From the IMG/VR virus record IMGVR_UViG_3300049825_000338, positions 20,600 to 84,599 of that record: a stretch of DNA of 64,000 nucleotides. One strand, 5' to 3'. Shown in pieces: positions 9,595-63,179 of the stretch. This DNA is from a virus (taxonomy: Duplodnaviria > Heunggongvirae > Uroviricota > Caudoviricetes). Numbering within the stretch: the stretch's first letter is position 1; each line of letters starts with the position of its first letter. The notes under the pieces are model-generated. The model did no database searches and was not told the DNA's origin. It saw only the letters and a list, made by a program, of their open reading frames with translations. Both the position numbers and the translations under genes were made by a program.

Positions 9595-9597
9595 TAT

Positions 9598-9625
9598 ACG
9601 CTAGATTCTCGCTGGACGCAAGCAA
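9598..9625 (-). promoter_or_regulatory. putative promoter of LPXTG gene
   Basis: minus: TTGCTT (9620-9625), 16 nt, TAGCGT (9598-9603); AGAAATTGTAAAG element just upstream, as at the 43.1 kb and 43.3 kb promoters. Confidence 0.35.
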
Positions 9626-17612: not shown

Positions 17613-18457
17613 TAGTAATCGTCGTCCTCATCTTCCCGATCTTCGTACTCGCTGTCATCGTAACCCCAACCGTCATCGTCGTCTTCTTCAGACCACACAG
17701 CTGGCCAGATGTAGACCTCTGCGACTTCTTGCTTGATCTCACCTACAACCTCGTAGCGCCACGTGCGGCCCTTGCTGTAGTTGTAATCGTCCGGAATGGA
17801 TACGACATCGGCGGGATTGATCTTCACAACCATCACGCGTGCCCCGCCAAAGCTCTTCAGGTAGTTCTTAGAGCAGAAGTGCAGACCAGTTGAGCAGTGG
17901 TTGCGTCGATTGTCATCCACCTCTCCCCGATTCATCTGAACCGTCTGGCCGATGCTGTTGTCGATCGTTCCGGTGTAGCAGTCGGTGTAGTCATCATGGA
18001 CCTTCTTGAAGGCCAAGAAGTGCCCGTCAGGAGTGATCGGAAGACCAGCAACCTCCAGGAAGTCGTACAACTCGTCACGAGCCGCTACGAACGGGTTGCG
18101 GTACAGATTGGTTATGAACTTGACCCACGCCGCAACGTCCAGACCTTCGTTGATGATTTGGAGTACTCGGTCGGTGAGCGTTGTGTGGACTGGCTCGCCG
18201 TCGTAGTAAACACCGCTGGTGGTTACCGTCAGTTCACCCTCAGGCAAGAGGATCATCGTGTCAGGCAGGCTGCTAAAGGCATCAGCGATGCTCTTGGCTG
18301 GACTGGCCAGCCCGACTAGGTATTCGATGTCCGGGTTCGGGTTACGCAGCGCTTCTAGAGCGTTCTCGAACGCCATCGTACCGGTTTCGATCGAGTGGCT
18401 GTTAAAGTCGTTGTCAAAGAACGTGAGAGTGTTCGATGTGAGGAGATAGTTGATCAT
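17612..18457 (-). CDS. hypothetical protein with poly-acidic C-terminal tail
   Basis: ORF; TAATG stop/start overlap with rsr-like gene; tail EEDDDDGWGYDDSEYEDREDEDDDY. Confidence 0.5.
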   Translation of the reverse strand: MINYLLTSNTLTFFDNDFNSHSIETGTMAFENALEALRNPNPDIEYLVGLASPAKSIADAFSSLPDTMILLPEGELTVTTSGVYYDGEPVHTTLTDRVLQIINEGLDVAAWVKFITNLYRNPFVAARDELYDFLEVAGLPITPDGHFLAFKKVHDDYTDCYTGTIDNSIGQTVQMNRGEVDDNRRNHCSTGLHFCSKNYLKSFGGARVMVVKINPADVVSIPDDYNYSKGRTWRYEVVGEIKQEVAEVYIWPAVWSEEDDDDGWGYDDSEYEDREDEDDDY

Positions 18458-18489: not shown

Positions 18490-20472
18490 TTACTGGCTGA
18501 CTTGGTTTGTGACAACTTGATTGAGAGAATTTTTCCAGGCGATGTACGCAGCCACCTCGTCATCGTGACCGTTGCTGAACAGAAGCGGATAAGTGTTATG
18601 GATGGTGGACAGTACTTCCTTGGACATCGTGTCCACGTCCCAGTAATTCACCATAAATCCTGCGAATCGGTCATCATCTTCACCAAGATCGCTGAAGATT
18701 GGGTGATCCATCACTGTTTCCAGTAGCGCCGGATACCGGTCAAGCTGTGCAACAACCTGCGACCTTGCCCTATGACGAAGAACCACGTCCTTGTATTTCT
18801 CTGACGTAGCGCTGAGCGCCTCACTCCAGTGACGACTTTCTGGTAGACCCAGCTTCCTCACCTCGGCTGGTGTGTAGTGCTTGACCTCTAGAGTTGGGTG
18901 GTCGATACTAAGAACGTTCCACTCCGAACCTGACGGGCTGTCCTGGTGACGTTTGCTGCGACTCTGGTTGGCCCAAAAAAGGTCAGGGTTACTCAAATCA
19001 AACGTCGGTTTAGGACGCTTAGGTGTCGTGGATGCCTGACGAACCTCCTTTGGCTTCTTGGGTAGGTCGTCAAAGTTGATGATATTCTCATCCGGAATAC
19101 GCGCCTCGGTCTTAATCTTGTCCATATCACTATGCGAGCCAACCAGCAAAAAATCATCTCTATGGCGAGAAGATGGATAGTTGAACGTGAGAGTGGTGCG
19201 TACTCCCTTACTTCCTGTTGGAATGACAATGAACTTGTGCCGCAGACGTCGTTCGATATAGACTCTGTGATCACAAGGTACGGAGTAGGTCGGGAACACC
19301 GGACCCTTGGTAAATCGACTAGCGTAGGTAGGATCATGGTCAAGCGCCACATCAATACTATCGATCAAAGGGGCACCACGGTAATTGAACGTGTTACGGG
19401 CCAGACCAAAGTTCTGTACTGTGTCGTACCAGTAGAACGATGCGTCTACGACTGAGCTACAGGCGTCCAATTTGTCTTGAATGTGGCTGATCACCGAAGC
19501 ACGAGCGTCAGTGATGGCATCCCGAACCGCTACGATGCTCTGCTCATCGTATGAGAAGTCTTCACGAGAGGCCGTCACGTCGATCGACCCAATCGGAACA
19601 TCAATGACCACAGCAATTCTGTGCACTCGCAAAGAGTTTTGAAGAACCGAACTCTTTGAAATTGGGTAGATCACGCAACCTTGACGAATGTACGTGCCCT
19701 CATCCAACTCAGACGTTGCCAGCAATATCCGAACGTTGTCGACGTGCAGAATCTCTTCCGGCTCTGCAAAGTTCATGCCTTCGACAGCTGGCACAGGAAA
19801 GAACCCGTTAAGAAAGCGTCGTGCTGCTCGTGCAAACTCGTGATAGTCGCCGTGCTTGATTGAAAGCTTCACCTCGACACCTTGTGGCTCCGAGCAGTCC
19901 TCTTCACCCGCAAGCGTCAGCGCCGGAACGCCGCTGTTTTCGATGAACGCCAAGTAACTGCGTACTCGCGTTCCGTCGTAGCAACGAATCGCAAACTGAT
20001 CGGTGTAGGAGAAAGGCGACTTAGAGCCGAGACCGAGCATACCTACCTGGTCGTTGGTGCTTTCCTTTGACGAGCCAAACAACGTTGTGTACAGCGTGGT
20101 CACGGTCTCGTGATCCATGCCGGTGCCGAAGTCGCGAACACCGAACACAGGATTTAGTGCTGTAGGAACTGTAACCTCGAACGGCACGTCAGCCTTGCCT
20201 GCGGCTACGTGCGAGTCGAATGCGTTAGAGCACAATTCTCGCACGATTGCGCCAGGCTTGTCAGAGTAAAGCTTGTCCACGAGTGTGCGGAAGGCCTTAC
20301 CGTTCGCTTCAATCGTGAATGACTTCACGGTTCCGGTCATGTTCGACTCAAGAACGGTGGTGTCTGCGTTGCGGGGGATCATGATGTGACCTCTTCTGTC
20401 AGGTTGAACTGAGCGTAGTAGGGTGATGTGTCGTGAACTTTTCCTTCGGGACCGAAGACGCCATAGCACCAT
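18490..20472 (-). CDS. GHKL-family ATPase (HSP90/MORC-like); probable start at 20382 (ATGA overlap with upstream gene)
   Basis: N-box RELCSNAFDS, G1 box VRDFGTGM, G2 box GMLGLGSKS. Confidence 0.6.
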   Translation of the reverse strand: MVLWRLRSRRKSSRHITLLRSVQPDRRGHIMIPRNADTTVLESNMTGTVKSFTIEANGKAFRTLVDKLYSDKPGAIVRELCSNAFDSHVAAGKADVPFEVTVPTALNPVFGVRDFGTGMDHETVTTLYTTLFGSSKESTNDQVGMLGLGSKSPFSYTDQFAIRCYDGTRVRSYLAFIENSGVPALTLAGEEDCSEPQGVEVKLSIKHGDYHEFARAARRFLNGFFPVPAVEGMNFAEPEEILHVDNVRILLATSELDEGTYIRQGCVIYPISKSSVLQNSLRVHRIAVVIDVPIGSIDVTASREDFSYDEQSIVAVRDAITDARASVISHIQDKLDACSSVVDASFYWYDTVQNFGLARNTFNYRGAPLIDSIDVALDHDPTYASRFTKGPVFPTYSVPCDHRVYIERRLRHKFIVIPTGSKGVRTTLTFNYPSSRHRDDFLLVGSHSDMDKIKTEARIPDENIINFDDLPKKPKEVRQASTTPKRPKPTFDLSNPDLFWANQSRSKRHQDSPSGSEWNVLSIDHPTLEVKHYTPAEVRKLGLPESRHWSEALSATSEKYKDVVLRHRARSQVVAQLDRYPALLETVMDHPIFSDLGEDDDRFAGFMVNYWDVDTMSKEVLSTIHNTYPLLFSNGHDDEVAAYIAWKNSLNQVVTNQVSQ

Positions 20473-26600: not shown

Positions 26601-27107
26601 CTAGATGGAACAGATCATCAACTGTGGCCCGCCAAGAATCGAATCTTCGGCAAGCTGAAGCGTCTGAATAACCTCACTCCATTCCAGGCCACCAATCCCT
26701 GCGCCAATGCGTGGGATGTAGAGGAAGTCGATGCCGAACCCAAACCGCTTGTTGATCGAGTCTAGGCTGGACAAGGCGTTGATCGTTGCATCTCTAATCG
26801 CCTGCTGCTCTGCAAAGGGACCAGGCTCCACCTGAGTGATCATATTGAACACCAACGGAGACTCTGGAGTAACGCCTGCCGGATTGCCGTCATGCCATTG
26901 CACAACTTGACCGAGATTGACGGCTCCATTGCGGCACTGGTCGGCGTAGTATTCGTAGCATGTCGGGTATAGCTGACGAACCTGGCGAGCAAACCCCGCC
27001 CCCATCATTCCGCGAGCGTTGCAGCCATGCGCAAACGCACGCGGCCTGAAGTCAAACAAATTCCCAAATACCTCAATCAAGAGGATTCTCCGTTCCCATG
27101 TAGTCAA
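26601..27107 (-). CDS. macro domain (ADP-ribose binding/processing) protein
   Basis: HGCNARGMMGAGFARQV resembles the macro-domain N..GGGV loop. Confidence 0.6.
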   Translation of the reverse strand: MTTWERRILLIEVFGNLFDFRPRAFAHGCNARGMMGAGFARQVRQLYPTCYEYYADQCRNGAVNLGQVVQWHDGNPAGVTPESPLVFNMITQVEPGPFAEQQAIRDATINALSSLDSINKRFGFGIDFLYIPRIGAGIGGLEWSEVIQTLQLAEDSILGGPQLMICSI

Positions 27108-27771
27108 CCATCTTGCGCATCTTTGTGATAGCGCCGTCGTATTTACGACGAACCATCTCTCCGGTTATCTGCATCTGTGCTCCGATGTCTTTGAAGATCA
27201 TACCGGACGAACGCATACTGACAACCAGACGCTCTTCAGGAGTAAGATGCTTGAGCAATGGTGAAAGCGTGGACTTGAAAGATGTGTCGCTAGAAATAGA
27301 ATCACTTTCGTCGTCGACAGAGCCAAATATAGTGTAAGGCATCCTCTCCAACGATCGACTAGAACGAAGTGACGCAAGAGTTCTGATAGCCTCTGACGGG
27401 TTATCGTCGTACTTCATTTCGTGATTGACTCTAGCGTTCAACTCGTCGCCCAGAATGATGTTGGCCGTTTTACGAATAGCCTCCTGAATCTCGTTGCGAA
27501 CCCAGATCGAAGCATACGTCGAGAACTTGATTCCACGAGACGGATCAAAACCCTCAATAGCTCTAATCAGACCAATAACCGCAGCCTGCTCCATATCCTC
27601 ACCGTGTTTGCTGTACAGAGCGTGCTTACGCGCCCAGCTGATTGCTAGCTTATGGTTGTGCAGCACAAGCGTGTCACGAATCGATCGATCGCGTGTGGTG
27701 TAAAACTCCTTGAGCAGACGCTCCTGATCTGCAAGCGCCAAAACATCTCGTGCCTTTACCATGATCGCCAT
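27073..27771 (-). CDS. RNA polymerase sigma factor (sigma-70 family, SigB/F-like)
   Basis: region 2 (FSTYASIWVRNEI), region 4 HTH (LTPEERLVVSMRSSG...IGAQMQITGEMVRRKYDGAITKMRK). Confidence 0.75.
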   Translation of the reverse strand: MAIMVKARDVLALADQERLLKEFYTTRDRSIRDTLVLHNHKLAISWARKHALYSKHGEDMEQAAVIGLIRAIEGFDPSRGIKFSTYASIWVRNEIQEAIRKTANIILGDELNARVNHEMKYDDNPSEAIRTLASLRSSRSLERMPYTIFGSVDDESDSISSDTSFKSTLSPLLKHLTPEERLVVSMRSSGMIFKDIGAQMQITGEMVRRKYDGAITKMRKMVDYMGTENPLD

Positions 27772-29948: not shown

Positions 29949-30224
29949 ATGAAAGACCTCTCCTACAAGCAAATCTCCGACACCTGCGCATGGTTTGCGG
30001 CGAACGCCACCAATACCAGCGCCATGTCATGCGTACGAGACGCCTTCAACTGCCTTCGCAGCATCGACCACGGACACTACTTCCCGTTCTACCAGGACGT
30101 AGCCGAGGGTCTGCCGCAGTCATGGACGCAATCCGCTGCCGCATGGCTGGTCAAGGCCGCACAGCACGAGTTTGGCTTCAACGTTCCCGAAGCTCTGAAC
30201 TATCTCAGGCCGGTGACACCGTAA
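29949..30224 (+). CDS. hypothetical protein, lone plus-strand gene driven by divergent leaderless promoter
   Basis: promoter as above. Confidence 0.5.
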   Translation: MKDLSYKQISDTCAWFAANATNTSAMSCVRDAFNCLRSIDHGHYFPFYQDVAEGLPQSWTQSAAAWLVKAAQHEFGFNVPEALNYLRPVTP

Positions 30225-46620: not shown

Positions 46621-46802
46621 TGATAAATGCCCTTAGCAGCAAACTCGTCAAGACGTCGGTCTACCGCAAAGTCTCCGAGAATCAGACGTGCGTCCTCAAG
46701 CGAGGCAACAGTTATCGACTCGCCACTAGTCCACAAACGACGCGCTTCCTCTGCCGATAGCGCTGAGGATTCGTCAATCGTCATTGTAGGTAGTAAGTTC
46801 AC
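46617..46802 (-). CDS. hypothetical small protein
   Basis: ATGA-coupled ORF. Confidence 0.35.
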   Translation of the reverse strand: MNLLPTMTIDESSALSAEEARRLWTSGESITVASLEDARLILGDFAVDRRLDEFAAKGIYQ

Positions 46803-48658
46803 TCTGATTCCTTTACGAGCACTGCCTTCAACATCTTACCAGTGATCTTCGCTGCAACAGCACGGTGGTGTCCAGAGAGAATTACTCTGCGTCCATCTGC
46901 CTTCTCATAAACGACCGGGTATGTGTTACCTGCCTGATGAGCGTCAGCAAACGTCTTACCAGTACGTTCGTATTGACCTGTTGTGTAGTGCTGCACTCCC
47001 GACTTAGTGACCCACGGCTGCGTGGCGTGTAGGTTGTCGGTCGGAATGTCAACTAGCCGAGGAGTCTTGACGGCTGCTTCGACCTTCGCACGATCGAACA
47101 GAGGTTCTGTTTTCTTACGTCCAATCGACGGAAATGGTACGGGTACCTTGTCGTGGTGAGCAAATAGCTTCTCAACTCCGGGGTGATCCTTAGCAGGAGA
47201 CTTAATTACTCGGTGAATGGCCTGAGTCATTGTCTCGGCGTTATCTGCGGGCTTCGTGAACCTTGTCTTGACTACTCGGCTAGCCTCTGGAAAGTAGTTA
47301 CGCCCAGACGTGAACTTGCCTTCGGCATCGTGATTTTTGTTGTAGAAGTCATCTGCATCAAGAATCACAAATGAATCAATTGTTTCTTGAATGAGTGATG
47401 CAGTCACCTGAATACCAGCAAAGACAAGAGAATCGGGCATCAGTGCAATTTTCTGAACAGGAAAACGTCCAGTCTCATGAACTACAGCGTTCTGCGCTTC
47501 TGTCTCAGTTGCCAGCGCTCTGATAGCGCCACGACTCTTGAACATCTCGGAGTGAGAAACGTAAGCCGCACGTTCTCCATGACGATCAAACCCTCGGCCG
47601 GTGGCAGCGTGACCGAACACATCATGAACGGCGCGAAACATGTCATTTTCCTGATCGGTAAAGAACGTGTGACTTCCCGTCACTGCCGTCTTCATCACCT
47701 TGATCGTGCCCGCTTCAACGTCGGCAGTCATCATCTTGGCTGTTCGGTATGGGTCGTATGAAACAAACTCGACCTTGATTCCCTTAGACGTCATAAAATC
47801 AAACTGCTGTTTCACTTCACCAGCAAGTGCTCGATACGATGGGTGCGCCGATGGATCATCAACAGGCATAGCTTCATACGCCTTAGCCATCTTTGAGCGT
47901 AGCTCGGCGGGAGCCATTATTTCATCCCAAGCACCTTCAGATCGTTCGGTGCTCTGCGTGTACGCATCCCGAATTTGACGCGCTCGTGCTGATCCAGTCA
48001 CATCTTCGATTACTTCTGGATTGGCTACGTTTACGTCAGAGGCAGTGAACCGACCCTTTGCGTCATGATTCTTATTGAAGAATTCATCAGAACCTTGATC
48101 GAGCGACCAACGCCCATTTGACGTGTGGTAGATGTGGTACTGAGCAAATAGATTGTCATCAGCCACCACAAACTCATTTGTCTGAACTACAGATAGGGTC
48201 ACTTTCTCGGCACCCTGACGACTCGTTAGCGTATTCACGATACCTTGAAACATAGGCTTCTTCATGTAGTCACCTTCACGTCGATACGATTTGTCGCTGA
48301 TCTGGATTAACCGATCAAACCTCAGATACGACTCACGACCTGTCTTATCCCACTTGCCTTCACCGATGCTCACTCGGCCAGGTCCAGACTTCGACGTTAG
48401 TTGAAGTGCAACTAGATTCTTGCCGTCAGCGGTACGGCCGATAATCAGCACAGGACGATCCTTGCTTTGCGAAGCGTCTTCTTGAAACGGAACGCGTGCC
48501 CACACCACTTCGCCTGGATCAGCGTGACCGTCTGGATATCGTGGGCGGTAGGCAATCTTGATATTAGAGAACGACACATCAGGAAGAGCTGTCGATCCTG
48601 ATGTAGTAGTGAACCGACCTACGTTGTCGTGAGCCTTGTTGTAGAATTCGTCATCCAT
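46799..48658 (-). CDS. multidomain polyvalent-type protein: MazF/PemK-like, unknown and ParB-like nuclease domains separated by three FYNKNHDxxG[RK]F motifs
   Basis: DEFYNKAHDNVGRF, DEFFNKNHDAKGRF, DDFYNKNHDAEGKF. PGEVVWARVPF...RPVLIIG (PemK-like). YPVVYEKADGRRVILSGHHRAVAAKITG (ParB GxxR/HHR box). Confidence 0.6.
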   Translation of the reverse strand: MDDEFYNKAHDNVGRFTTTSGSTALPDVSFSNIKIAYRPRYPDGHADPGEVVWARVPFQEDASQSKDRPVLIIGRTADGKNLVALQLTSKSGPGRVSIGEGKWDKTGRESYLRFDRLIQISDKSYRREGDYMKKPMFQGIVNTLTSRQGAEKVTLSVVQTNEFVVADDNLFAQYHIYHTSNGRWSLDQGSDEFFNKNHDAKGRFTASDVNVANPEVIEDVTGSARARQIRDAYTQSTERSEGAWDEIMAPAELRSKMAKAYEAMPVDDPSAHPSYRALAGEVKQQFDFMTSKGIKVEFVSYDPYRTAKMMTADVEAGTIKVMKTAVTGSHTFFTDQENDMFRAVHDVFGHAATGRGFDRHGERAAYVSHSEMFKSRGAIRALATETEAQNAVVHETGRFPVQKIALMPDSLVFAGIQVTASLIQETIDSFVILDADDFYNKNHDAEGKFTSGRNYFPEASRVVKTRFTKPADNAETMTQAIHRVIKSPAKDHPGVEKLFAHHDKVPVPFPSIGRKKTEPLFDRAKVEAAVKTPRLVDIPTDNLHATQPWVTKSGVQHYTTGQYERTGKTFADAHQAGNTYPVVYEKADGRRVILSGHHRAVAAKITGKMLKAVLVKESE

Positions 48659-49345: not shown

Positions 49346-50111
49346 CGAATTGACCGGTCATAAGGTCTTTGCCAAACCACGAGTGTGACCGTCCTGCGTC
49401 TCGTTTGCCGATTGATGCAAAGTGAATCGGCTGCACGTCTGCACCGTCACGGACTGCCTGAAGAACTGCGTCTAGGTCGTTCTTTGTTCCTTGCGAAAGG
49501 TACTGACGATTCTCGCTACCATACTTTTCAAACACCTCAGCCACGTTAGTTCTATCAATGTTGTCCCTAAACCTAAACCCGGCCTTGGCCCAGGCGTACG
49601 GTCCAACAGCACCAGCACCTGTCGAAGAAGCATAGACTTCGATGTCGTTCACACCGGCTTCGTGATAGAACTTCAGTGCTTTAGCATTTATGGCGGTACC
49701 TATGCCTTTTCCTTGCATAGTTAAGTAGTTAATTGACAAATAATCGTGTGAAGCAATAAGCTTTCTTGTCTGTGAATCAACCATAATTCGTCGCTTAAAT
49801 TCACCTATTGGTGCCCCATCCTTATCACTGATTACTCCACTAACCGCAAAGCTGTGCCCAATACTTTCTCTAAACACTACTGCTTTAGCACTCCATTCGT
49901 TATTTGTCTGGGTAAAGGCTTCAGCAATTTGAATTTCAGTTAATTTATCAAACTGTCTGAATACGTTTCGTCCAGATGAAGAGGAGGAAGAAATAGGAGA
50001 AATAGGTACATCACTACCAGGAAGTGAGCCTCCGCTGCCCGTAGGGGGAGGAGCGCAGGTTGACGAATGACAGGCGAAACTAAGAGACTGAACTACGTGC
50101 AACATCAGCAA
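49308..50111 (-). CDS. lipoprotein with GNAT acetyltransferase domain
   Basis: lipobox SFAC with leader paralogous to gene 624-2999; MQGKGIGTAINAKALKFYHEAG GNAT motif. Confidence 0.55.
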   Translation of the reverse strand: MLMLHVVQSLSFACHSSTCAPPPTGSGGSLPGSDVPISPISSSSSSGRNVFRQFDKLTEIQIAEAFTQTNNEWSAKAVVFRESIGHSFAVSGVISDKDGAPIGEFKRRIMVDSQTRKLIASHDYLSINYLTMQGKGIGTAINAKALKFYHEAGVNDIEVYASSTGAGAVGPYAWAKAGFRFRDNIDRTNVAEVFEKYGSENRQYLSQGTKNDLDAVLQAVRDGADVQPIHFASIGKRDAGRSHSWFGKDLMTGQFDETPDYEAVYHL

Positions 50112-50610
50112 TCCGCGCTTCGACCGCAGCGAGTAGAGCTGCCATTTCAGAGGGACTTTCAGACGGAAGAATTATCTCCAGTTCAAGAGGAAACGAGACT
50201 GTCAACGGTTCAGCAAGAGGAACCGAGTAACGACCGAAGTCACCATCCGCCCATACTTCCATGCGGTCAAATTCAATGGAAGTCGGCATCGTACCAGTGT
50301 ACTCGTCTTCACCGTAACTCAGGGACAGGTGCGGCAGCCACTCAGGATGCTCCGATTCACAAAGATCGGCTACAGCCTGACGGTAAATGTCAGCCTGTTT
50401 CGGGTCAAGATAGACGACTTCAGCGGCCCATTTGCCCTCTCCAAGCTGCCCGGTTCCGACCACTGAGAGTGATCTTTTAGGAAGGGTTGGCGCAAGCGCT
50501 CCGACTCGTTGACACCACGAAGCGTAACTACTTTCTGTGGTATTTTCACTGTACGCTAAGGTCATGTGCCCTTCACCGATAGCGTTGGTCGGTACTAGTG
50601 CGATGATCAC
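50080..50610 (-). CDS. 2H phosphoesterase (LigT-like cyclic phosphodiesterase/2'-5' RNA ligase family)
   Basis: two H-x-[TS]-x motifs, HMTL and HLSL, ~88 aa apart in a 176-aa protein. Confidence 0.55.
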   Translation of the reverse strand: MIIALVPTNAIGEGHMTLAYSENTTESSYASWCQRVGALAPTLPKRSLSVVGTGQLGEGKWAAEVVYLDPKQADIYRQAVADLCESEHPEWLPHLSLSYGEDEYTGTMPTSIEFDRMEVWADGDFGRYSVPLAEPLTVSFPLELEIILPSESPSEMAALLAAVEARIADVARSSVS

Positions 50611-50889: not shown

Positions 50890-51246
50890 TCATTCTTCCA
50901 AGTCTACCCACTGGCTTCGATCGTTCAACACCTGAGTTCTGATGTTTTTCGGATTCATGGCTTTCTCAACCAGCGACTCAACAGACGGCCGACCCGCAGC
51001 CAGTGCTACAGCCGTACGAAACCACGCTTTCCATTCAGGAGTCTCGCGTAGACGCTGGAACGCAGCAGTCTTGTTTCGGTGTTGCTCACGGCTGTCTGTC
51101 GCTTCGCCAACAGCACCAGAAGCTCGGTGAACAAGCCGAACACCGGTATGCGATTTGTTGCGATGCTGTCCACCGGCACCCGAACCACGAATATGCGTCT
51201 CGTCAAAGTCTTTCGCTGTGATCGTCAGAATCAGTTCTCGGCTCAT
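50890..51246 (-). CDS. GGQ-motif peptidyl-tRNA hydrolase domain protein (ArfB/release-factor-like)
   Basis: RGSGAGGQHRNKSHTGVRLVH matches the ArfB GGQ block; DSREQHRNKTAAFQRL follows. Confidence 0.75.
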   Translation of the reverse strand: MSRELILTITAKDFDETHIRGSGAGGQHRNKSHTGVRLVHRASGAVGEATDSREQHRNKTAAFQRLRETPEWKAWFRTAVALAAGRPSVESLVEKAMNPKNIRTQVLNDRSQWVDLEE

Positions 51247-51305: not shown

Positions 51306-51647
51306 TCAGGTGTCTGTAGCGGTGGTCTCAATCGAGTCCGTTTGGCGCTTCGCTCGGTTTCGCTCTAGACGCTCGATCATGATCTCGGCTTCACGGTCCA
51401 CGCTCAGATCAACGTGTACGTTCGTTGACCGTGTCTCTTTGATTTCACCGACGCCGACGAGAGCAAGAATCTTTACAGCGGCGGCAAGACGCACAGCCTC
51501 GCTGTCACCGAGTTCGCTCAACTCTACGAGCGTGCGCACGGCTTTGTCAGCGTGACCAGACAGTTTGGCTCGTAGATCGTTTCGTTTCAGTTCTAGAGCA
51601 AGGGCAGTATCTTCGTTGAGCGCTGGCAGGGCCATGATGCTGATCAT
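51306..51647 (-). CDS. hypothetical protein, first leftward gene (likely starts at second ATG 51635)
   Basis: TATGAT (51643-51648) 7 nt upstream of second ATG. Confidence 0.45.
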   Translation of the reverse strand: MISIMALPALNEDTALALELKRNDLRAKLSGHADKAVRTLVELSELGDSEAVRLAAAVKILALVGVGEIKETRSTNVHVDLSVDREAEIMIERLERNRAKRQTDSIETTATDT

Positions 51648-52037
51648 AGCACATCACTGACTTTCTGTGATTTATGCTGGTCACGACACGAATTTTTTCG
51701 TTTTACCACGACACGTCGACGTTTTCTGAAACCCGTAACTGATTTTGAAACTTTCAAAAACCTTAAGACCCTTAAGAAATAAGACATATATAGTACAGTT
51801 ACATAAGTTACATAAGTTACATAGATATATAAGCCTACATGACTACATAAAGGTCTAAAGCTCTCATGACGCTCTCGTGTACGTATAGCTTTATTTTCAA
51901 CTTGAAACCTCCTTTTTTGTAACTGGCAAAAAACGGCCGTCTAGCAGGTACGATGCATTTCTCAGTTACAAAAAGGCGTTGCAACTCTGCAAAATTACGG
52001 TGCTTTTCTGCCCCGACGGGGGGTAAAGTGACGTTGC
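51648..52037. promoter_or_regulatory. divergent AT-rich control/putative origin region with iterons
   Basis: three tandem 9-bp gttacataa/g repeats (51798-51824) plus two further TACAT copies to 51850; direct repeats cacgacacg (51682-51690, 51707-51715); palindrome acgtcgacgt (51713-51722); GC hairpin ccccgacgggg (52011-52021); strand switch. Confidence 0.5.
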
Positions 52038-53912
52038 ATGACAACCACATCCACGACGCAAACGCTCCCTTCGGCTGCCCATCTGGTCGCCGCCCTTCTC
52101 ACGGCTATGGCTGCCGACACACCCGACACGGACAAGGTGATGGACCTCGATCGGCAACTGGCTACGCTAGACGCTTCCGCAGACGCTCCGATCAGCCTAC
52201 CGCTGTTCCTTCACTGGAAAGAGTCCATGAAGGAGCTTTACTCCAAGGTACCTTCCATGGATGCGAACGGCAAGCCCACCGAGTCTCCGTCGCTGAAGCA
52301 GATTCAGACCGACATCGACAACGCCGAGCTTGTTCTTCGATCCGTAGTCTTCGACGTTTCCGCAGGTAGACGATCACTGCTCGCTCAACTCAGGGACTCT
52401 GGCACTCACGTAGAGTTTGCTGAGTCCATCATCACGGAACCGCAAACAGCGGCGCTTCTTGTCGCCGCCACGGGCGTCTCGTACCCGACCGATAAGGTCA
52501 AGCCCTTGCGCAACTACGTAAAGTCGTTCGTGCGCGAATGGCAGAAGAACGACCGCCCGATAGCTCAGGTTGGCGGCTACCGCGCTGTGTGGTCTGATCG
52601 GGGTGAGTTCCTACTGTCTCGCAAGCATCTACAGCACATGCCCTCCGAGCAGGCACGTGAAGACGCTCGTACGGCATTCAAGGAGATTCTGGAAGAGTTC
52701 ATCAAGCAGTGTGACCGAAAGGCTCCGACTGAGGATGGTGACAACACAGTCAACGCACTGAACGGACTTCTGGTACTCGGCGCAGCGTGGGCGTGCCCAT
52801 TCTTCGATCAACTCACTACGACCACTCTGCGTGGCGCTTTATGGCATATGTGGGGCAACTCGGGCAAAGGCAAGACCGTCTTTATCGACCTAATTCACTC
52901 ACTCTGGGCGGCGGATGTTCGGAGTACGTGGGACACCACGGTGGCTGGTCTCACGTCGGCGCTTGCCGAAAGTCACCTGATTCCGTACTGCATGGACGAG
53001 GGTGGGCGCATTGATGAAGACAAGCTCTCTGAGATGATCTTCTCAATCGGTGACGGCACCGAGCGTACGCGCAGCACGACATCGGGTAGGGCCAAGGAAA
53101 AGAAAAGTTGGCGAACGATGGTGTTCTCGTCGGGTGAGTCTCAGCTAGAGACAGCGTCTGGAGCAGACGGCGAGACACGCCGAATCATCAACATCCCTAT
53201 GCCGGTAGCCGATTTGCACACAAATTCGGTCATCATGGGCTACCTGGCCCGCAATCATCGGCTGTTTCCGGTTCCTACCGCCGATATGCGCACCCGCATG
53301 ATCTTGATGTACCGCAAGTTTCACACGATCCTGTCCGAGACGTACGCTAGCAGATCATCGTCTAAGGCTCGTGGCGTTACTGAGGCGCGTATTGCCATGG
53401 CGTCCATGGCCTGCGCTGGCGTCAACTTGATGTTTGAGTTTGCTGGCGTTCTGCCTCCTTCGATTGGAGCGCTTGTCGATCACGTCGGTGCTCATATCAG
53501 GGACGTGGCCGAAGAAACGGAATCTCGTCTTGAGACACGAGTGTGGGATATTTTCAGCGCTTTCTTGGACGCTCATAGTGCTCAATGGAACTTCGACGCC
53601 AGTTCCGATCCGCAAAGTCCTCACACCTGGTTCGGTGTGTTCCACGAACGGAACACGCCGTATAGATTCCGACGAAACATCAAAAATGACACACTATCTC
53701 TAGATAAGACGTCCTTTCAGTTATGGCTAGAGTCAACAGGCAACCAGAAGAATCTGTCCAACCTCGTCAAGAACTGGTCTCGCGATGGTCTCGTGACAGT
53801 CAGTCCAGGCCGCAGGTGGCACGCCGTAAAGCTCGACGGAGTGACGGTTGACTGCTTGACTGTGAATATAAGACGTTTAGGAGTCGGAACGTCTTCAGAC
53901 GGTACAGTGTGA
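52038..53912 (+). CDS. SF3 helicase / P4-type primase C-terminal domain protein
   Basis: P-loop GNSGKGKTVF within a D5/P4 primase-helicase-like context. Confidence 0.5.
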   Translation: MTTTSTTQTLPSAAHLVAALLTAMAADTPDTDKVMDLDRQLATLDASADAPISLPLFLHWKESMKELYSKVPSMDANGKPTESPSLKQIQTDIDNAELVLRSVVFDVSAGRRSLLAQLRDSGTHVEFAESIITEPQTAALLVAATGVSYPTDKVKPLRNYVKSFVREWQKNDRPIAQVGGYRAVWSDRGEFLLSRKHLQHMPSEQAREDARTAFKEILEEFIKQCDRKAPTEDGDNTVNALNGLLVLGAAWACPFFDQLTTTTLRGALWHMWGNSGKGKTVFIDLIHSLWAADVRSTWDTTVAGLTSALAESHLIPYCMDEGGRIDEDKLSEMIFSIGDGTERTRSTTSGRAKEKKSWRTMVFSSGESQLETASGADGETRRIINIPMPVADLHTNSVIMGYLARNHRLFPVPTADMRTRMILMYRKFHTILSETYASRSSSKARGVTEARIAMASMACAGVNLMFEFAGVLPPSIGALVDHVGAHIRDVAEETESRLETRVWDIFSAFLDAHSAQWNFDASSDPQSPHTWFGVFHERNTPYRFRRNIKNDTLSLDKTSFQLWLESTGNQKNLSNLVKNWSRDGLVTVSPGRRWHAVKLDGVTVDCLTVNIRRLGVGTSSDGTV

Positions 53913-53915
53913 ATT

Positions 53916-54158
53916 ATGAACTGCAAAGACTGCGCCTTCTGGAAATCGAACGACGATGAAACCGTTGGTGATTGCCGAGTTCACGCTCCAGTAGCCCATA
54001 TCCTTCCTGTCCTGGATGCGTTTGGTAACCCAGGTCTACGGACGGAGTCGATGTTTCCGCAGACTCGACCAGACATCTGGTGTGGAGAATACAAGAACCG
54101 AACCGACTACGCTGTTCAGGGATTAATTGAAAACTTATCAAAGGAATCAGTAAAGTGA
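53916..54158 (+). CDS. hypothetical Cys-containing protein
   Basis: ORF only. Confidence 0.4.
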   Translation: MNCKDCAFWKSNDDETVGDCRVHAPVAHILPVLDAFGNPGLRTESMFPQTRPDIWCGEYKNRTDYAVQGLIENLSKESVK

Positions 54159-57689: not shown

Positions 57690-58037
57690 ATGTTAGCGAC
57701 TAATCCGTGGAAACCGTTGAGGTGGGTGCAGGTAGGTGACCCCATTCCGGAAATTTACACCGATGACAGCACCAAGATTTGGCGTATTCTCACGCCAGTT
57801 CGCGGTCTTGAGAATGAGAAGGCCATACGAATGAACGCCCCTGGTAACCCGGACGAGTTCAATCCTTGCCTGATATCCAGCCCACCTATGGAACACGCCG
57901 ACGATCACGGAGGATATTCGTATTCGATCATTGCTAGCCAGACAGGCTGGCTCTGCTTTCAAGAAGTAACCGTACCCGATAAGGCCACCTTTGTCGGTGA
58001 CCTTCCTCTAAGACCAGGATTTTGGCCTAATTTATGA
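57690..58037 (+). CDS. hypothetical protein
   Basis: ORF only. Confidence 0.35.
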   Translation: MLATNPWKPLRWVQVGDPIPEIYTDDSTKIWRILTPVRGLENEKAIRMNAPGNPDEFNPCLISSPPMEHADDHGGYSYSIIASQTGWLCFQEVTVPDKATFVGDLPLRPGFWPNL

Positions 58038-58477
58038 GTACCGATTGGACAGTTCATCAGCGTATGGTGATGAAGTTCGCAAACTCTGCAAAACGCAAGT
58101 ATCACACACGACTAGGGTCTCAATCAGTTGAGGATATTTCTCAGTCGCTGTGGGCCATTGCGCTACCGAAGCTTGATAAGTATGACCCTACGTTGGCGGC
58201 TGAGTCGACGTTCATGTGGCGTGTCTTGTCAGGGGCCGTATCAAATCTGATACAGCGAAAGGAGTTCAACCTTGATCACTTGACAAGCCAGTTTGACCTT
58301 TCATCGGACCCTGTATTTGAGGACACGTACAGTACGTCTTACGGTGACGTTACAAGCGACCGAGTTGCAAAGATGATTATGGACGGCCACTCGGTAACGG
58401 CAACGCGCAAGTCTCTCAACTTGACTGTGAAGCAGATGGATGCAGCGTTCACGCAGATTAGAAAGAGCTACGAATGA
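58034..58477 (+). CDS. sigma-70 region-2-like domain protein
   Basis: VEDISQSLWAIALPKLDKYDP...FMWRVLSGAVSNLIQRK. Confidence 0.4.
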   Translation: MSTDWTVHQRMVMKFANSAKRKYHTRLGSQSVEDISQSLWAIALPKLDKYDPTLAAESTFMWRVLSGAVSNLIQRKEFNLDHLTSQFDLSSDPVFEDTYSTSYGDVTSDRVAKMIMDGHSVTATRKSLNLTVKQMDAAFTQIRKSYE

Positions 58478-60037: not shown

Positions 60038-61804
60038 ATGTCAATTCTTGAGGCCGATCTTCACTTTCTGGATTCGGTAGATAAGGTTGCCGACTTCTTG
60101 ACGTGGCTTCACTCGGATCACGCCATGCTCGCTGTTGACACGGAAACAAACGCCAAGCACTGGGCGCGTGGTGGTAAAGTTCGACTTTTCCAGATTGCCG
60201 ACCATAAGCAGGGGTGGGCTATTCCGTTTGATGGACATAGAGCGTTGTGCAAGCACGCTCTCGATTGGTGGACTGGTCCGTTTATCTTCCACAACGCTAA
60301 GTTCGATGTCATCTTCTTGATGCACGAGCTAGGTTGGAAGCCTCAGTGGGCAAACATCCACGACTCGTTTCTGGCCTCTAAAGTGATCAACGAGTTCGGT
60401 CACCATGGTCTGAAGCCTCTCGGCACGTGGAAGGTTCATCCGGCTGCGGCTGCTGGTCAAGGAGCACTAGAGGCAGCGTTTGACAAATATGGATGGGACT
60501 GGGCTACCGTCCCACTTGACCTTCCTGCATATTCTATCTACGGAGCATTCGACACGGTACTTACTGTGTACCTGTTCGAAGAGCTGATGAAACAACTGAA
60601 CGCCGATGAGGGGTTCATGCGTGCCTATCTGATCGAGCAGGGCAGCATCGAAAGCGTCTGTAAAGTTGAGATGCACGGCATCACGGTAGACCCCGACTAC
60701 ATAGCGGCGAAGACCGGCGACTTACGGGTAGAAGCCGATGAGATCGCTAAGCAGGTACGCGAGCAGTACGGTGATGAGTGGTCTATTTCGTCCAACAACT
60801 CGATGTCGGCTCTGTTAGTTCGTGAAGGTGTGCCGCTGTACGAGCGTACGCCTACAGACAAGTTCAAGATGAACAAAGACGTTGTTGCCGAGTTCGAAAA
60901 CTTCCATCCGCTTGTCGGGATGATGTCCACGTTCCGGAAGAATAACAAGATCATCTCCACGTACTACGACGCACTGATGGAGCTACGAAATGCCGACAAT
61001 CAGGTGTTTGCTGAGTTTCGGCAGTGTGAGGCCGACACTCTGCGCATGTCTGTCGCCAATCCTCCCTTCCAGCAGATTCCGAGTCGGTCTGAGAAAGGTA
61101 AGATGGTTCGGCGTTCGATCGTAGCGCCACCAGGCCAGAAGCTGATTGCGGTTGACTTGGCACAGATCGAGTTCCGTATCTTTGCGCACCTTGCTAATGA
61201 CCCTGGCTTGATTCAGACGATCAGAGACGGCCTAGACATTCACTCGTTTGTGGCTGCTAAGGCGTTTCGCACCGAGGCACCGACAAGCAAGCAGCGTGCG
61301 GAAGCGAAGAGCGTAGTTTTCGGATCGCTCTATGGTGCAGGCGCACGTAAGATCGCTCACACGCTTGGCTACACTGAGGAAGACGGCCAGGTCGTGTACG
61401 ATTCTGTGCACAACGCCTTTCCTACAATGAAACGATTCTCTAAGGGTGTCGAGCAGGAAGCGAAGCGCCACAAGCGTAACGGCTTAGTCAGCGCTATCTC
61501 GATGTACGGTAATCGCCTGACGATCGGTGAAGACGACGCTTACAAGTTGACGAACTACATGATTCAGTCTCCAGCAGCTCTACTGTTCAAGGAATGCCTG
61601 CTGCGCGCCAGTGCCTGTGGTCTGTCTGACTTTTTTACTAACTTCGTGCATGATGAGTTGGTTGTGTCTGTTCCGGATGACCACGAAACCATCCGAGAGG
61701 TATCAGCTATTCTGCATGATTGCTTCTCTGATAGCGAACTTATGCGAGTGCCGGTAACATGTGAGGTGTCCGCACCTTCTGATGACTGGAGTCAATGTAA
61801 GTGA
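60038..61804 (+). CDS. polA: DNA polymerase I (family A) with 3'-5' exonuclease domain
   Basis: Exo I LAVDTETN; motif A VDLAQIEFRIFAHL; motif B RAEAKSVVFGSLYGAG; motif C FVHDELVV. Confidence 0.85.
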   Translation: MSILEADLHFLDSVDKVADFLTWLHSDHAMLAVDTETNAKHWARGGKVRLFQIADHKQGWAIPFDGHRALCKHALDWWTGPFIFHNAKFDVIFLMHELGWKPQWANIHDSFLASKVINEFGHHGLKPLGTWKVHPAAAAGQGALEAAFDKYGWDWATVPLDLPAYSIYGAFDTVLTVYLFEELMKQLNADEGFMRAYLIEQGSIESVCKVEMHGITVDPDYIAAKTGDLRVEADEIAKQVREQYGDEWSISSNNSMSALLVREGVPLYERTPTDKFKMNKDVVAEFENFHPLVGMMSTFRKNNKIISTYYDALMELRNADNQVFAEFRQCEADTLRMSVANPPFQQIPSRSEKGKMVRRSIVAPPGQKLIAVDLAQIEFRIFAHLANDPGLIQTIRDGLDIHSFVAAKAFRTEAPTSKQRAEAKSVVFGSLYGAGARKIAHTLGYTEEDGQVVYDSVHNAFPTMKRFSKGVEQEAKRHKRNGLVSAISMYGNRLTIGEDDAYKLTNYMIQSPAALLFKECLLRASACGLSDFFTNFVHDELVVSVPDDHETIREVSAILHDCFSDSELMRVPVTCEVSAPSDDWSQCK

Positions 61805-62729: not shown

Positions 62730-63179
62730 CTAGCCCTGCAACTGTGACGGTTTCAGGAGACCCTGAGTTAAGCAATACAATCCGAGATGACGTGCAGCGT
62801 CGTTCGCGTGACTTCCCTTCGTGGCCTTCCACCAACCGAGACGCTTTAAAGCAGGATCAGGAAGCAGTTTCTTTGCGGATACGGGAAGCTGCAATACAAG
62901 AGACAAACCGGATTTTTGGCAAAGATACTCAACTGCCCCGATAACTCTCATCGGCTCATACGCTGGTGCCTTCTTGGCAGTAGCCTGATTGATAGTGAAA
63001 CGCTCACAAATGACTACATCGACTGAAGGTTCTACAAGTGATTCTTCTAGGAGCGATTCGACAAACGAGACCGCTTCGAATACACCGGAGACTTCTCCGC
63101 TTTCTACGGTAGAGTTATCCCATATCGCCCATCCAGTGACTAGTCCTGGGTCTATAGCAAGCAGCTTCCCACTCATCAT
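62730..63179 (-). CDS. RuvC-like Holliday junction resolvase
   Basis: LLAIDPGLVTGWAIWD (Asp), VVICERF (Glu), HANDAARHLG (Asp/His). Confidence 0.65.
   Translation of the reverse strand: MMSGKLLAIDPGLVTGWAIWDNSTVESGEVSGVFEAVSFVESLLEESLVEPSVDVVICERFTINQATAKKAPAYEPMRVIGAVEYLCQKSGLSLVLQLPVSAKKLLPDPALKRLGWWKATKGSHANDAARHLGLYCLTQGLLKPSQLQG

What the first reader, a model, noticed from the sequence alone, without database searches (positions are those of the whole stretch)
51648..52037. Strand-switch region with iterons: putative origin or master control locus
A 390-bp AT-rich gap sits where leftward and rightward transcription diverge. It contains three perfect tandem 9-mers (gttacataa) plus further TACATAA copies, a 9-bp direct repeat (cacgacacg) spaced two helical turns apart, a 10-bp palindrome (acgtcgacgt), A-tracts, and a tight GC hairpin just before the rightward primase-helicase gene. 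Iterons beside a primase/helicase gene are classic for phage/plasmid theta or RCR origins. The direct repeats could instead be operator sites for the first leftward gene at 51306-51647.
Basis: seen in the sequence. Interest (0 to 1): 0.55.

Follow-up and report, generated by a model that had tools for sequence, protein, structure and literature searches.

The report
Candidate phage origin beside initiator-helicase gene
The only strand-switch gap of this uncultured phage holds the least stable, most repeat-rich non-coding DNA in the window, directly upstream of a gene for a helicase of the kind that opens its own replication origin; that makes it a reasonable but unproven candidate origin of an already known type.

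Summary
51648-52037 is the only strand switch, the largest gap and the lowest-GC stretch of the window. It carries three perfect tandem AGTTACATA units, CACGACACG twice, several palindromes and a GC hairpin. This repeat load was never reached in 2000 dinucleotide shuffles.

New evidence:
- The rightward gene is not a demonstrable primase. It is a DUF927 helicase whose model matches SCCmec Cch and SaPIbov1 Rep over its full length, including a C-terminal winged helix. A Prim-Pol gene lies 46 kb away.
- Characterised relatives bind short iterons beside their own gene. SaPI origins have 6-12 penta- or hexanucleotides in both orientations around an AT-rich centre. Cch2 binds three iterons in a 23-bp block.
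- Here AGTTAC occurs six times in both orientations.
- The array sits on the least stable duplex of the 64 kb.

Best reading, about 0.45: an iteron plus AT-rich unwinding origin for this helicase, framed by two weak divergent promoters.

Caveats:
- No relatives exist, so conservation cannot be tested.
- GC skew is confounded with transcription.
- The gap lies upstream of the gene, not downstream as in SaPI and SCCmec.
- The same 27-mer occurs sporadically in unrelated bacteria.

"Master control locus" is not supported: the leftward arm has about 11 consensus promoters of its own.

The parts
51306..51647 (-). First leftward gene (113 aa, or 109 aa if it starts at the ATG at 51635). It is an orphan, predicted to be mostly helical. 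Role unknown.
   Evidence: ORF, translation. No Pfam, PHROG, NCBIfam or PDB hit. The only database hit is itself. The single-sequence AlphaFold2 model has pLDDT 59.
51643..51671 (-). Candidate leftward promoter: ATCACA, 17-nt spacer, then TGcTATGAT (an extended -10). The -10 overlaps the annotated ATG at 51647 and lies 7 nt before the ATG at 51635, so the transcript may be leaderless.
   Evidence: Promoter scan and own scan. The same GTGCTATGAT lies 8 nt before the ATG of the next gene at 51246. TAnnnT lies 5-9 nt before 14 of 66 gene starts, against a 4.9% background (P = 3e-6).
51682..51722 (+). CACGACACG twice (51682-90 and 51707-15, 25-bp spacing), the second copy running into the 10-bp palindrome ACGTCGACGT (51713-22). 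Centres lie about -51 and -76 from the putative leftward start. Candidate regulator or accessory-protein sites.
   Evidence: (the only exact copies in the window).
51735..51740 (-). Inverted copy of the AGTTAC core (CAGTTAC on the - strand, 51735-51741) at the left edge of the AT-rich core.
51743..51796 (.). AT-rich spacer of about 25% GC. Contains the perfect palindrome TTTTGAAACTTTCAAAA (51743-59) and CTTAAGA twice (51762, 51771; a third TAAGA at 51780) at 9-bp spacing.
   Evidence: The GC figure was counted by hand.
51797..51823 (+). Three perfect tandem 9-mers AGTTACATA. These are the proposed iterons and the centre of the proposed DNA-unwinding element.
   Evidence: score 54, best in the window. 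The least stable duplex at 40-, 60- and 100-bp scales (51791-51830, 51772-51831, 51752-51851; z = 4.4 to 5.3) is centred here.
51835..51850 (+). Two degenerate further units: CTACATG and CTACATAA.
   Evidence: Tandem Repeats Finder period-18 row.
51911..51976 (.). Inverted repeat CCTTTTTTGTAACTGG / TCAGTTACAAAAAGG. It carries the fifth and sixth AGTTAC cores (51919 on -, 51964 on +). The loop contains the palindrome ACGGCCGT (51933-40).
   Evidence: (repeat I1: 17-nt arms, 88% complementary, 27 nt apart). DNA fold of the stem (z = -2.1).
52011..52029 (+). GC hairpin CCCCGACGGGG (52011-21) followed by the -10-like TAAAGT (52024-29), 8 nt before the ATG at 52038. Candidate promoter without a -35 element, giving a leaderless helicase mRNA. 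It is not a terminator, since no T run follows.
   Evidence: (no terminators found).
52038..53912 (+). Rep/Cch-type (DUF927, MCM-like AAA+) initiator-helicase of 624 aa with a C-terminal winged helix. No primase domain.
   Evidence: Pfam DUF927 at 5.5e-12. NCBIfam SCCmec Cch1 at 4e-11, below its cutoff. PDB sequence hits 8tch (3e-7) and 5dgk (1e-4). AlphaFold2 model pLDDT 83.4, with C-terminal strand-helix-helix-strand-strand at residues 552-610. Foldseek: 5dgk E = 5e-18 and 8tch E = 1e-15, each over about 600 columns. A profile of the 55-member family alignment hits both at about 1e-86 over nearly full length. Residues 11-40 are confidently modelled, which supports the start at 52038 rather than JGI's 52107.

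Best explanation
The gap is most likely the phage's replication origin, or one of them. It would be of the self-loading initiator-helicase type known from SaPI and SCCmec elements, set between two weak divergent promoters.

Proposed mechanism:
1. The 624-aa Rep/Cch-like helicase is made from the gene that starts at 52038.
2. Its C-terminal winged helix recognises the short AGTTAC(A) cores. Three lie in a tandem array with a 9-bp period (51797-51823). Three more lie singly in both orientations (51735-, 51919-, 51964+).
3. The protein oligomerises, probably as hexamers.
4. It melts the exceptionally unstable AT-rich DNA on which the array sits (about 51745-51850) and loads itself.
5. The separately encoded Prim-Pol (5197-5967) primes, and the PolA-type polymerase (60038-61804) extends. 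Replication then runs outward, co-directional with transcription of both arms.

The CACGACACG pair, the palindromes and the GC hairpin would be accessory or regulatory sites. They could, for example, couple the leftward promoter and helicase expression to initiation.

Shown here: the sequence features and their statistics, the helicase family and fold, and the duplex-stability minimum.

Inferred: that the helicase binds these repeats, that melting happens here, and that replication starts here.
For: - Family and fold of the neighbouring gene: Rep/Cch class with a C-terminal winged helix.
- Precedent in that class: SaPI Reps bind 6-12 penta- or hexanucleotide iterons placed in opposite orientations around an AT-rich centre next to rep, and melt it without ATP (PMC9371898). 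Cch2 binds a 23-bp block with three 5-nt iterons plus nearby inverted repeats, through its C-terminal domain (PMC7581432). Three 5-nt iterons in 23 bp implies a period of about 9 bp; that is my inference.
- Matching layout here: three tandem units at a 9-bp period, plus three more AGTTAC cores in both orientations. That is 6 of 29 window copies in 0.6% of the sequence (Poisson 1e-8). CAGTTAC accounts for 4 of 9 window copies.
- Repeat load beyond chance: 0 of 2000 shuffles reach it.
- The array coincides with the least stable duplex of the 64 kb at three scales (z = 4.4 to 5.3) and with the lowest GC.
- The gap is the only non-coding DNA adjacent to the helicase gene. The next gene starts 3 nt after its stop.
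- The cumulative G-C minimum is at 52.6 kb, with symmetric arm skews of -0.052 and +0.052.
- The motifs are confined to this gap, so they are not a genome-wide promoter motif.
- Other AT-rich spots (48.7-49.0 kb, 49.7-50.0 kb) lack comparable repeats.
Against: - There is no direct evidence of binding or initiation.
- Conservation cannot be tested. The helicase and the 113-aa protein have no relatives above about 35% identity in 1.8-5.8 billion proteins. The nearest phage relatives lack this helicase near their polymerase gene.
- In SaPI and SCCmec the origin lies 3' of the helicase gene. Here it lies 5'.
- GC skew is fully confounded with transcription direction. The two counter-oriented genes give contradictory answers.
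- AT-rich, repeat-bearing DNA between divergent genes is also what a promoter/operator region looks like. The array itself contains -10-like hexamers (TAAGTT, TAACTT) and a weak promoter match, AAGACA-N17-TAAGTT.
- Three perfect copies could be a recent slippage product.
- The identical 27-mer occurs in 9 metagenome and 5 genome contigs from scattered taxa, mostly next to ordinary chromosomal genes. The unit sequence is therefore not diagnostic of an origin.
- 42 kb of the 106-kb contig were not available to me and could hold another candidate.
Confidence: 0.45

Rival explanations
1. A purely transcriptional control region. The gap holds the divergent promoters for the first leftward gene and for the helicase/replication arm. 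The repeats (the AGTTACATA array, CACGACACG twice, the TTTTG...CAAAA palindromes) would be binding sites for phage or host regulators that time the switch from early (leftward) to middle (rightward) expression. Replication would start elsewhere.
For: - Promoter-like elements sit at both edges: TGcTATGAT at 51651-43, and TAAAGT at 52024-29, 8 nt before the ATG.
- Weak promoter matches lie inside the AT-rich core: TTAAGA-N16-TACAGT and AAGACA-N17-TAAGTT.
- The rightward arm has no perfect TTGACA -35 promoter, and the phage encodes its own sigma factor (27073-27771) plus a sigma-like protein (58034-58477). A dedicated switch at the head of that arm is therefore plausible.
- The CACGACACG copies lie at about -51 and -76 from the leftward start, which are typical activator positions.
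- In the unrelated phage-like contig L011 the same triple 9-mer lies in the 115-bp gap just upstream of a DnaB-like helicase gene, overlapping where its promoter would be.
Against: - No regulator is identifiable. The adjacent 113-aa protein has no DNA-binding signature.
- Tandem 9-bp direct repeats 160-200 bp from either candidate promoter are not a usual operator layout.
- The motifs do not recur at other promoters or intergenic regions.
- The leftward arm does not depend on this region, because it has about 11 consensus promoters of its own.
- Three or four distinct repeat families on a duplex-stability minimum, next to an initiator-helicase, is more than a simple operator needs.
Confidence: 0.3
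2. A largely non-functional AT-rich spacer. Two promoters sit at its edges, and the tandem 9-mers and other short repeats are neutral products of replication slippage in AT-rich DNA.
For: - The three units are perfectly identical, as expected for recent slippage.
- The same (AGTTACATA)n array arises sporadically in unrelated bacteria (Clostridium, Porphyromonadaceae, Paraglaciecola MAGs). It lies beside arginine decarboxylase, MMPL, cyclase and dehydrogenase genes, with no common context.
- No conservation data exist.
Against: - Phage genomes are tightly packed. This is by far the largest gap in 64 kb.
- Slippage does not explain the inverted AGTTAC copies, the 14-17-nt inverted repeat that carries them, the CACGACACG pair or the palindromes.
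- Total repeat load exceeds every one of 2000 composition-matched shuffles.
- Enrichment of AGTTAC holds even if the tandem array is counted once: four independent sites against 0.14 expected.
Confidence: 0.15
3. Another kind of cis site built from repeats, such as a partition (centromere-like) site, a packaging site, or the junction of the genome ends.
For: Short tandem direct repeats bound by small proteins are typical of plasmid centromeres (general knowledge). The adjacent 113-aa helical protein is uncharacterised.
Against: - No ParA/ParB-like, terminase or integrase gene was seen among the ORFs scanned near the gap.
- The gene content looks virulent: rIIA/rIIB, NAMPT, RNA ligase, own polymerase and sigma factor.
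- Packaging sites normally sit by terminase genes.
Confidence: 0.05

Closest known systems
SaPI replication origins with Rep initiator-helicases (SaPIbov1 Rep, PDB 8TCH; SaPI1 Rep1; SaPI5 PriRep5)
   Same: - The helicase belongs to the same structural class: DUF927 / MCM-like AAA+ core with a C-terminal winged helix. The fold matches over its full length.
- The origin logic is the same: several very short repeats in both orientations around an AT-rich, easily melted centre, in the non-coding DNA adjacent to the helicase gene (PMC9371898).
- The primase is encoded separately, as in SaPI1 and SaPIbov1.
   Different: - Sequence identity is only about 13% overall. Only the ATPase core is alignable by sequence from the single protein.
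- The candidate origin lies 5' of the gene, not immediately 3'.
- The units are 9-bp tandem repeats with a 6-7-bp core and themselves form the AT-rich segment. In SaPIs two iteron sets flank a separate AT-rich block.
- The element is a virulent-looking phage of at least 106 kb, not a 15-kb satellite.
- The primase is a Prim-Pol 46 kb away, not an adjacent pri gene.
SCCmec Cch / Cch2 helicases and the putative SCCmec origin
   Same: - Cch (5DGK) is the best structural match (E = 5e-18, about 605 aligned columns).
- For Cch2, the binding site is a 23-bp block of three 5-nt direct repeats with neighbouring inverted repeats, bound by the C-terminal domain (PMC7581432). Three tandem short iterons at roughly a 9-bp period plus inverted repeats is what is seen here.
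   Different: - Cch2, the protein with the mapped site, belongs to a different helicase family from Cch/DUF927.
- Its site is downstream of its gene.
- NCBIfam Cch1 scores 42 bits against a cutoff of 700, so the phage protein is not an equivalog.
Phage P4 alpha protein with ori/crr, and phage DUF927 primase-helicase fusions
   Same: A single phage protein combines origin recognition and helicase activity, and short octamer-type iterons occur in both orientations (P4: my own knowledge, not checked here). Structural neighbours in the BFVD viral library are DUF927 proteins of uncultured phages.
   Different: Those proteins are 900-1000 aa fusions with an N-terminal primase. This one is 624 aa without a primase domain.
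Promoter-plus-AT-rich origins of T7 and T4 (my own knowledge, not checked here)
   Same: An AT-rich unwinding region sits next to promoters at the head of the replication gene block. Transcription could help open the DNA.
   Different: Those origins do not use an iteron-binding initiator. No phage RNA polymerase gene was seen here.
Iteron plasmid and lambda-type theta origins
   Same: Direct repeats plus an AT-rich region next to the initiator gene.
   Different: Those iterons are 17-22 bp in helical phase, bound by Rep or O proteins that recruit the host DnaB, often with DnaA boxes. Here the units are 9 bp, no DnaA box lies within 2 mismatches, and the initiator is itself the helicase.

Membership tests
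Origin of a Rep/Cch-type self-loading initiator-helicase (SaPI/SCCmec type) | The adjacent gene encodes a DUF927 / MCM-like AAA+ helicase with a C-terminal winged-helix DNA-binding domain. | tested here: met
   Pfam DUF927. PDB 8tch and 5dgk by sequence and by fold over about 600 columns. Family profile hits both at about 1e-86. The model shows a strand-helix-helix-strand-strand element at residues 552-610.
Origin of a Rep/Cch-type self-loading initiator-helicase (SaPI/SCCmec type) | Multiple short (5-6 nt) iterons, with copies in opposite orientation on either side of an AT-rich region. | tested here: met
   Six exact AGTTAC cores: 51735(-), 51797/51806/51815(+), 51919(-), 51964(+). P is about 1e-8. 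The 25%-GC spacer 51743-96 lies between the first inverted copy and the array. Which repeat, if any, is the true iteron is unknown.
Origin of a Rep/Cch-type self-loading initiator-helicase (SaPI/SCCmec type) | An easily melted AT-rich segment inside the origin. | tested here: met
   The least stable duplex of the 64 kb at 40, 60 and 100 bp is 51752-51851 (z about 5), at 27% GC. Actual melting was not testable.
Origin of a Rep/Cch-type self-loading initiator-helicase (SaPI/SCCmec type) | The origin lies immediately downstream (3') of the helicase gene. | tested here: not met
   The next gene starts 3 nt after the helicase stop codon. The repeat region lies upstream of the gene.
Origin of a Rep/Cch-type self-loading initiator-helicase (SaPI/SCCmec type) | The helicase binds the iterons specifically and replication initiates there. 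| not testable with these tools
   Needs gel-shift or footprinting assays and marker-frequency or plasmid replication assays.
Classic iteron theta origin (plasmid Rep / lambda O type) | Iterons of 17-22 bp in helical phase, DnaA boxes or host-helicase recruitment, and a Rep_3 or O-type initiator. | tested here: not met
   Units are 9 bp with a 9-bp period. No DnaA box within 2 mismatches. The initiator candidate is itself a helicase.
Rolling-circle double-strand origin | An HUH-type Rep nuclease gene and a nick site in a hairpin loop. | tested here: inconclusive
   No HUH Rep was found among the 50 ORFs scanned with profile libraries. Not every ORF was scanned, and 42 kb of the contig were unseen.
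Divergent promoter/operator switch (lambda OR-like) | An adjacent repressor gene with a DNA-binding domain, and dyad-symmetric operators overlapping divergent promoters. | tested here: inconclusive
   Weak divergent promoter candidates exist. The 113-aa protein has no detectable DNA-binding domain and a low-confidence model. The repeats do not overlap the edge promoters.

The most novel reading that the evidence does not exclude
A large (at least 106 kb), virulent-looking, probably actinobacterial phage may start its own replication with a SaPI/SCCmec-type self-loading MCM-like helicase. That helicase would recognise a 9-bp tandem iteron array which is itself the unwinding element, placed upstream of its own gene at the single point where the two transcription arms diverge, with a Prim-Pol supplied from elsewhere in the genome. 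This would carry the satellite/island initiation mechanism over to the primary replication of a big lytic phage. It would also offer a fully orphan helicase / winged-helix / iteron set for study.
Probability: 0.35. Interest if true: 0.5.

Novelty: new member of a known kind. Interest (0 to 1): 0.35.

Why it matters
Replication origins of uncultured phages are almost never mapped. If this reading is right, the locus gives a concrete and compact test system: a 390-bp fragment plus one 624-aa protein. It would test how Rep/Cch-type helicases recognise and open DNA outside staphylococcal islands. It would also show that this initiator class serves large lytic phages. In practice it would mark the replication start for interpreting coverage profiles of this phage lineage in metagenomes. 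If the reading is wrong, the region is still the entry point of the rightward replication gene arm and a likely regulatory site. Either way it is an ordinary kind of feature, not a new principle.

Tried and rejected
**Comparative genomics (no usable relatives)**
- No DNA or protein match in the 50,697-record phage collection.
- No IMG/VR relatives of the helicase, the 113-aa protein or the polymerase, nor of the nearest helicase homologues P0003 and P0005.
- The metagenome scan with the helicase found nothing.
- The family alignment was too diverse to use for a locus search.
- The source contig could not be retrieved.
- Polymerase relatives were fetched (L001-L006). They share rIIA, rIIB, Prim-Pol and polymerase with the window but have no DUF927 helicase or similar gap. 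CAGTTACA is absent from them.

**RNA and coding readings**
- No Rfam hit.
- The rightward 5' region does not fold better than shuffles (z = -0.5).
- ORFs inside the gap are short and implausible.
- No terminators were found.

**Genome-wide promoter motif reading:** rejected, because the motifs occur only in the gap.

**DnaA-dependent origin:** rejected.

**GC skew as evidence for an origin:** examined and set aside as confounded.

**A conserved binding site shared across elements**
- The exact 27-mer was found in 9 metagenome and 5 genome contigs.
- The flanks are unrelated and mostly ordinary chromosomal genes, so this was not adopted.

**Fold search of the 113-aa model:** not run, because pLDDT 59 would give meaningless matches.

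Full report
**What the window is.** The 64 kb come from a 106,011-bp JGI metagenome contig. It looks like a large virulent phage:
- rIIA (18490-20472) and an rIIB-like gene (17612-18457);
- NAMPT, RNA ligase and a Ro60/TROVE-like protein;
- a PolA-type polymerase (60038-61804) and a ClpP-like protease;
- a VanY/PG-binding lysin, an N6/N4 methylase and a PP2C phosphatase;
- a full sigma factor (27073-27771) and a Prim-Pol (5197-5967).

It has no match in the phage collection at DNA or protein level, and IMG/VR holds no close relatives. The nearest polymerase relatives are 31-45% identical. One of them carries WhiB and Lsr2 genes. Together with the promoter grammar described below, this points to an actinobacterial host. 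That is an inference.

**The observation.** The gap 51648-52037 is real and stands out.
- It is the only strand switch: genes run leftward up to 51647 and rightward from 52038. It is also the largest intergenic gap.
- It contains the lowest-GC 300 bp of the window (36%; 27% at 51750-51849, against 51.3% overall).
  - The three 9-mers are perfect in the register AGTTACATA (51797-51823), not GTTACATAA.
  - The CACGACACG copies are 25 bp apart, about 2.4 helical turns.
  - No primase domain was found in the 'primase-helicase'.
  - The 6-nt core AGTTAC occurs six times in both orientations: 51735-, 51797+, 51806+, 51815+, 51919-, 51964+. That is 6 of 29 window copies against 0.14 expected.
  - The last two copies sit in a 14-17-nt inverted repeat, CAGTTACAAAAAGG.
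  - There is a perfect 17-bp palindrome at 51743-59.
  - CTTAAGA repeats at a 9-bp period.
- The count of repeated 7-, 8- and 9-mers was reached by none of 2000 dinucleotide shuffles. Only a coding acidic repeat at 9.1-9.6 kb matches this density.

**Promoter grammar, and what it says about 'master control'.**
- Aligning gene starts shows that 14 of 66 have TAnnnT 5-9 nt upstream of the start codon (background 4.9%, P = 3e-6). A further 26 have a Shine-Dalgarno-like motif.
- About 11 starts in the leftward arm carry a perfect TTGACA, a 16-17-nt spacer and TAnnnT, followed within 5-9 nt by ATG. These are leaderless mRNAs from consensus host-type promoters spread along the whole arm.
- The gap has only weak matches:
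  - ATCACA-N17-TGcTATGAT at its left edge. This overlaps the annotated ATG at 51647 and would give a leaderless start at 51635.
  - TAAAGT without a -35 element, 8 nt before the helicase ATG.
  - Two poor matches inside the AT-rich core.
- The leftward arm therefore does not depend on this region, and 'master control locus' is not supported.
- The rightward arm lacks perfect -35 promoters and may use the phage sigma factor. A regulatory role at the head of that arm stays open.

**The neighbouring gene.**
- By sequence, only the ATPase core of the 624-aa protein (about residues 244-390) has homologues. There are 1949 hits in 1.84 billion representatives, all under 40% identity. Pfam calls the core DUF927.
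- The best solved relatives are SaPIbov1 Rep (8TCH) and SCCmec Cch (5DGK).
- An AlphaFold2 model built on a 55-sequence alignment has pLDDT 83.4 and ends in a strand-helix-helix-strand-strand winged-helix-like unit.
- Foldseek places Cch (E = 5e-18) and SaPIbov1 Rep (E = 1e-15) first, each aligned over about 600 columns. Poxvirus D5/E5 and MCM follow.
- A profile of the 55-member family alignment hits both at about 1e-86 over nearly the whole length, including the C-terminal domain.
- No primase domain is present. In BFVD (predicted structures of viral proteins), related phage proteins are 900-1000-aa fusions, whereas this phage has a separate Prim-Pol.
- The confident N-terminal helices (residues 11-40) favour the start at 52038 over JGI's 52107.

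**Why this matters for the gap.** In this protein class the helicase is also the initiator.
- SaPI Reps use the C-terminal winged helix to bind 6-12 penta- or hexanucleotide iterons. These are arranged in opposite orientations around an AT-rich centre next to the rep gene, and Rep melts that centre without ATP (PMC9371898).
- SCCmec Cch2 binds, through its C-terminal domain, a 23-bp direct-repeat block with three 5-nt iterons flanked by inverted repeats (PMC7581432). That geometry implies a period of about 9 bp, which is my inference.
- The gap shows the same grammar. Three tandem units sit at a 9-bp period, further cores occur in both orientations, and inverted repeats are present. The array sits exactly on the least stable duplex of the 64 kb at 40-, 60- and 100-bp scales (z = 4.4 to 5.3).
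- It is the only non-coding DNA next to the helicase gene.
- Other AT-rich spots lack such repeats, and no DnaA box is present.

**Limits.**
- Nothing here shows binding or initiation.
- Conservation, the most useful computational test, is unavailable. Both flanking proteins are orphans, and the nearest phage relatives use other replication modules.
- The cumulative G-C minimum at 52.6 kb and the symmetric arm skews fit an origin, but they coincide with the transcription switch. The two counter-oriented genes disagree.
- The position upstream of the gene differs from SaPI and SCCmec.
- The AT-rich array inevitably contains -10-like hexamers.
- The exact 27-mer turns up in 9 metagenome and 5 species-genome contigs of scattered taxonomy. 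Most lie beside ordinary chromosomal genes, so the unit is not diagnostic and perfect triplets can arise by slippage.
- One of those contigs, L011, is phage-like. It has the same triplet in the 115-bp gap just upstream of a DnaB-like helicase gene. This is a curiosity that fits either a promoter/operator or an origin reading. I could not run a background control.

**Verdict.**
- Observation: confirmed.
- Interpretation: partly supported.

| Reading | Confidence |
|---|---|
| SaPI/SCCmec-style iteron plus unwinding-element origin served by the adjacent Rep/Cch-like helicase, between two weak divergent promoters | about 0.45 |
| Transcriptional control region only | about 0.30 |
| Mostly neutral AT-rich spacer | about 0.15 |
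| Other cis site | about 0.05 |

This is a new member of a known kind. Interest is moderate to low (0.35). Its value is that it offers a compact, testable origin/initiator pair in an orphan lineage of large phages.

Noticed in passing
window, leftward arm; for example -35 hexamers at 11581, 12392, 20644, 23088, 23854, 29606, 29915(+), 36416, 40149, 43150, 43360: About 11 perfect TTGACA-N16/17-TAnnnT promoters are each followed within 5-9 nt by an ATG, which implies leaderless mRNAs. Overall, 14 of 66 gene starts have TAnnnT 5-9 nt upstream (P = 3e-6) and 26 of 66 have a Shine-Dalgarno-like motif. This mixed grammar is typical of Actinobacteria or Deinococcus.
   Followed up: partly
window 27073-27771 (-) and 58034-58477 (+): The phage encodes a sigma factor (Sigma70 regions 2 and 4, E = 2e-15) in the early leftward arm. 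A second, weak sigma region-2-like protein lies in the rightward arm and is conserved in relative L001. The rightward arm has no perfect TTGACA -35 promoter, so it may be transcribed with the phage sigma.
   Followed up: partly
window 5197-5967 (-): A Prim-Pol (archaeo-eukaryotic-type primase-polymerase, E = 3.5e-29) is encoded 46 kb from the helicase gene. Primase and initiator-helicase are therefore unlinked in this genome. In relative L001 the Prim-Pol lies 3 kb upstream of the polymerase.
   Followed up: partly
L007-L020 (metagenome and genome contigs): The exact 27-mer (AGTTACATA)x3, often within longer or degenerate arrays, occurs in 9 metagenome and 5 genome contigs of unrelated taxa and 32-65% GC. 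Most lie next to ordinary chromosomal genes. In GC-rich L010 and L015 the arrays are degenerate (GTTACATNA-like units), and in L015 they are flanked by an inverted copy. No background control could be run.
   Followed up: partly
L011 822-936: In an unrelated phage-like contig the same triple 9-mer lies in the 115-bp AT-rich gap between an HNH endonuclease gene and a DnaB-like helicase gene. It ends 18 nt before the helicase start codon.
   Followed up: partly
window 52038 vs 52107: JGI calls the helicase 23 codons shorter (601 aa). The AlphaFold2 model has confident helices at residues 13-25 and 31-43, which favours the longer form starting at 52038.
   Followed up: partly
window 50890-51246 (-), 50080-50610 (-), 46799-48658 (-): The first genes of the leftward arm include an RF-1-domain protein (ArfB / peptidyl-tRNA hydrolase-like), a weak 2'-5' RNA ligase-superfamily protein, and a 619-aa protein with an N-terminal MazF/PemK-like domain. 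This is a cluster aimed at translation and RNA.
   Followed up: no
window 9100-9600, inside gene 8566-9594 (-): This is the second most repeat-dense stretch of the window. It consists of imperfect 24-30-nt direct repeats rich in GTC/ATC triplets (GAC/GAT on the coding strand), which implies an acidic low-complexity protein segment.
   Followed up: partly
window 53895-53915 and 52011-52029: Both the helicase gene and the next gene (ATG at 53916) are preceded by the same arrangement. A short GC hairpin (CCCCgacGGGG, CGTCTtcAGACG) comes first, then G(G), then a TAnAGT -10-like hexamer 7-8 nt before the ATG. Function unknown.
   Followed up: no
L001 (Logan SRR29078249 contig, 81 kb) and L002: L001 is the nearest relative found (polymerase 45% identical). 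It keeps rIIA, rIIB, Prim-Pol, Ro60-like, sigma-like and polymerase genes in one co-directional block, whereas the window splits them between two divergent arms. A more distant relative, L002, carries WhiB and Lsr2 genes, which suggests actinobacterial hosts for the group.
   Followed up: partly
window 29949-30224 (+): A rightward gene sits inside the leftward arm with its own perfect promoter (TTGACA-N16-TAAGAT, 6 nt, then ATG). Its + strand GC skew (-0.16) follows the arm rather than its own coding direction. The counter-oriented gene at 62730-63179 does the opposite.
   Followed up: partly
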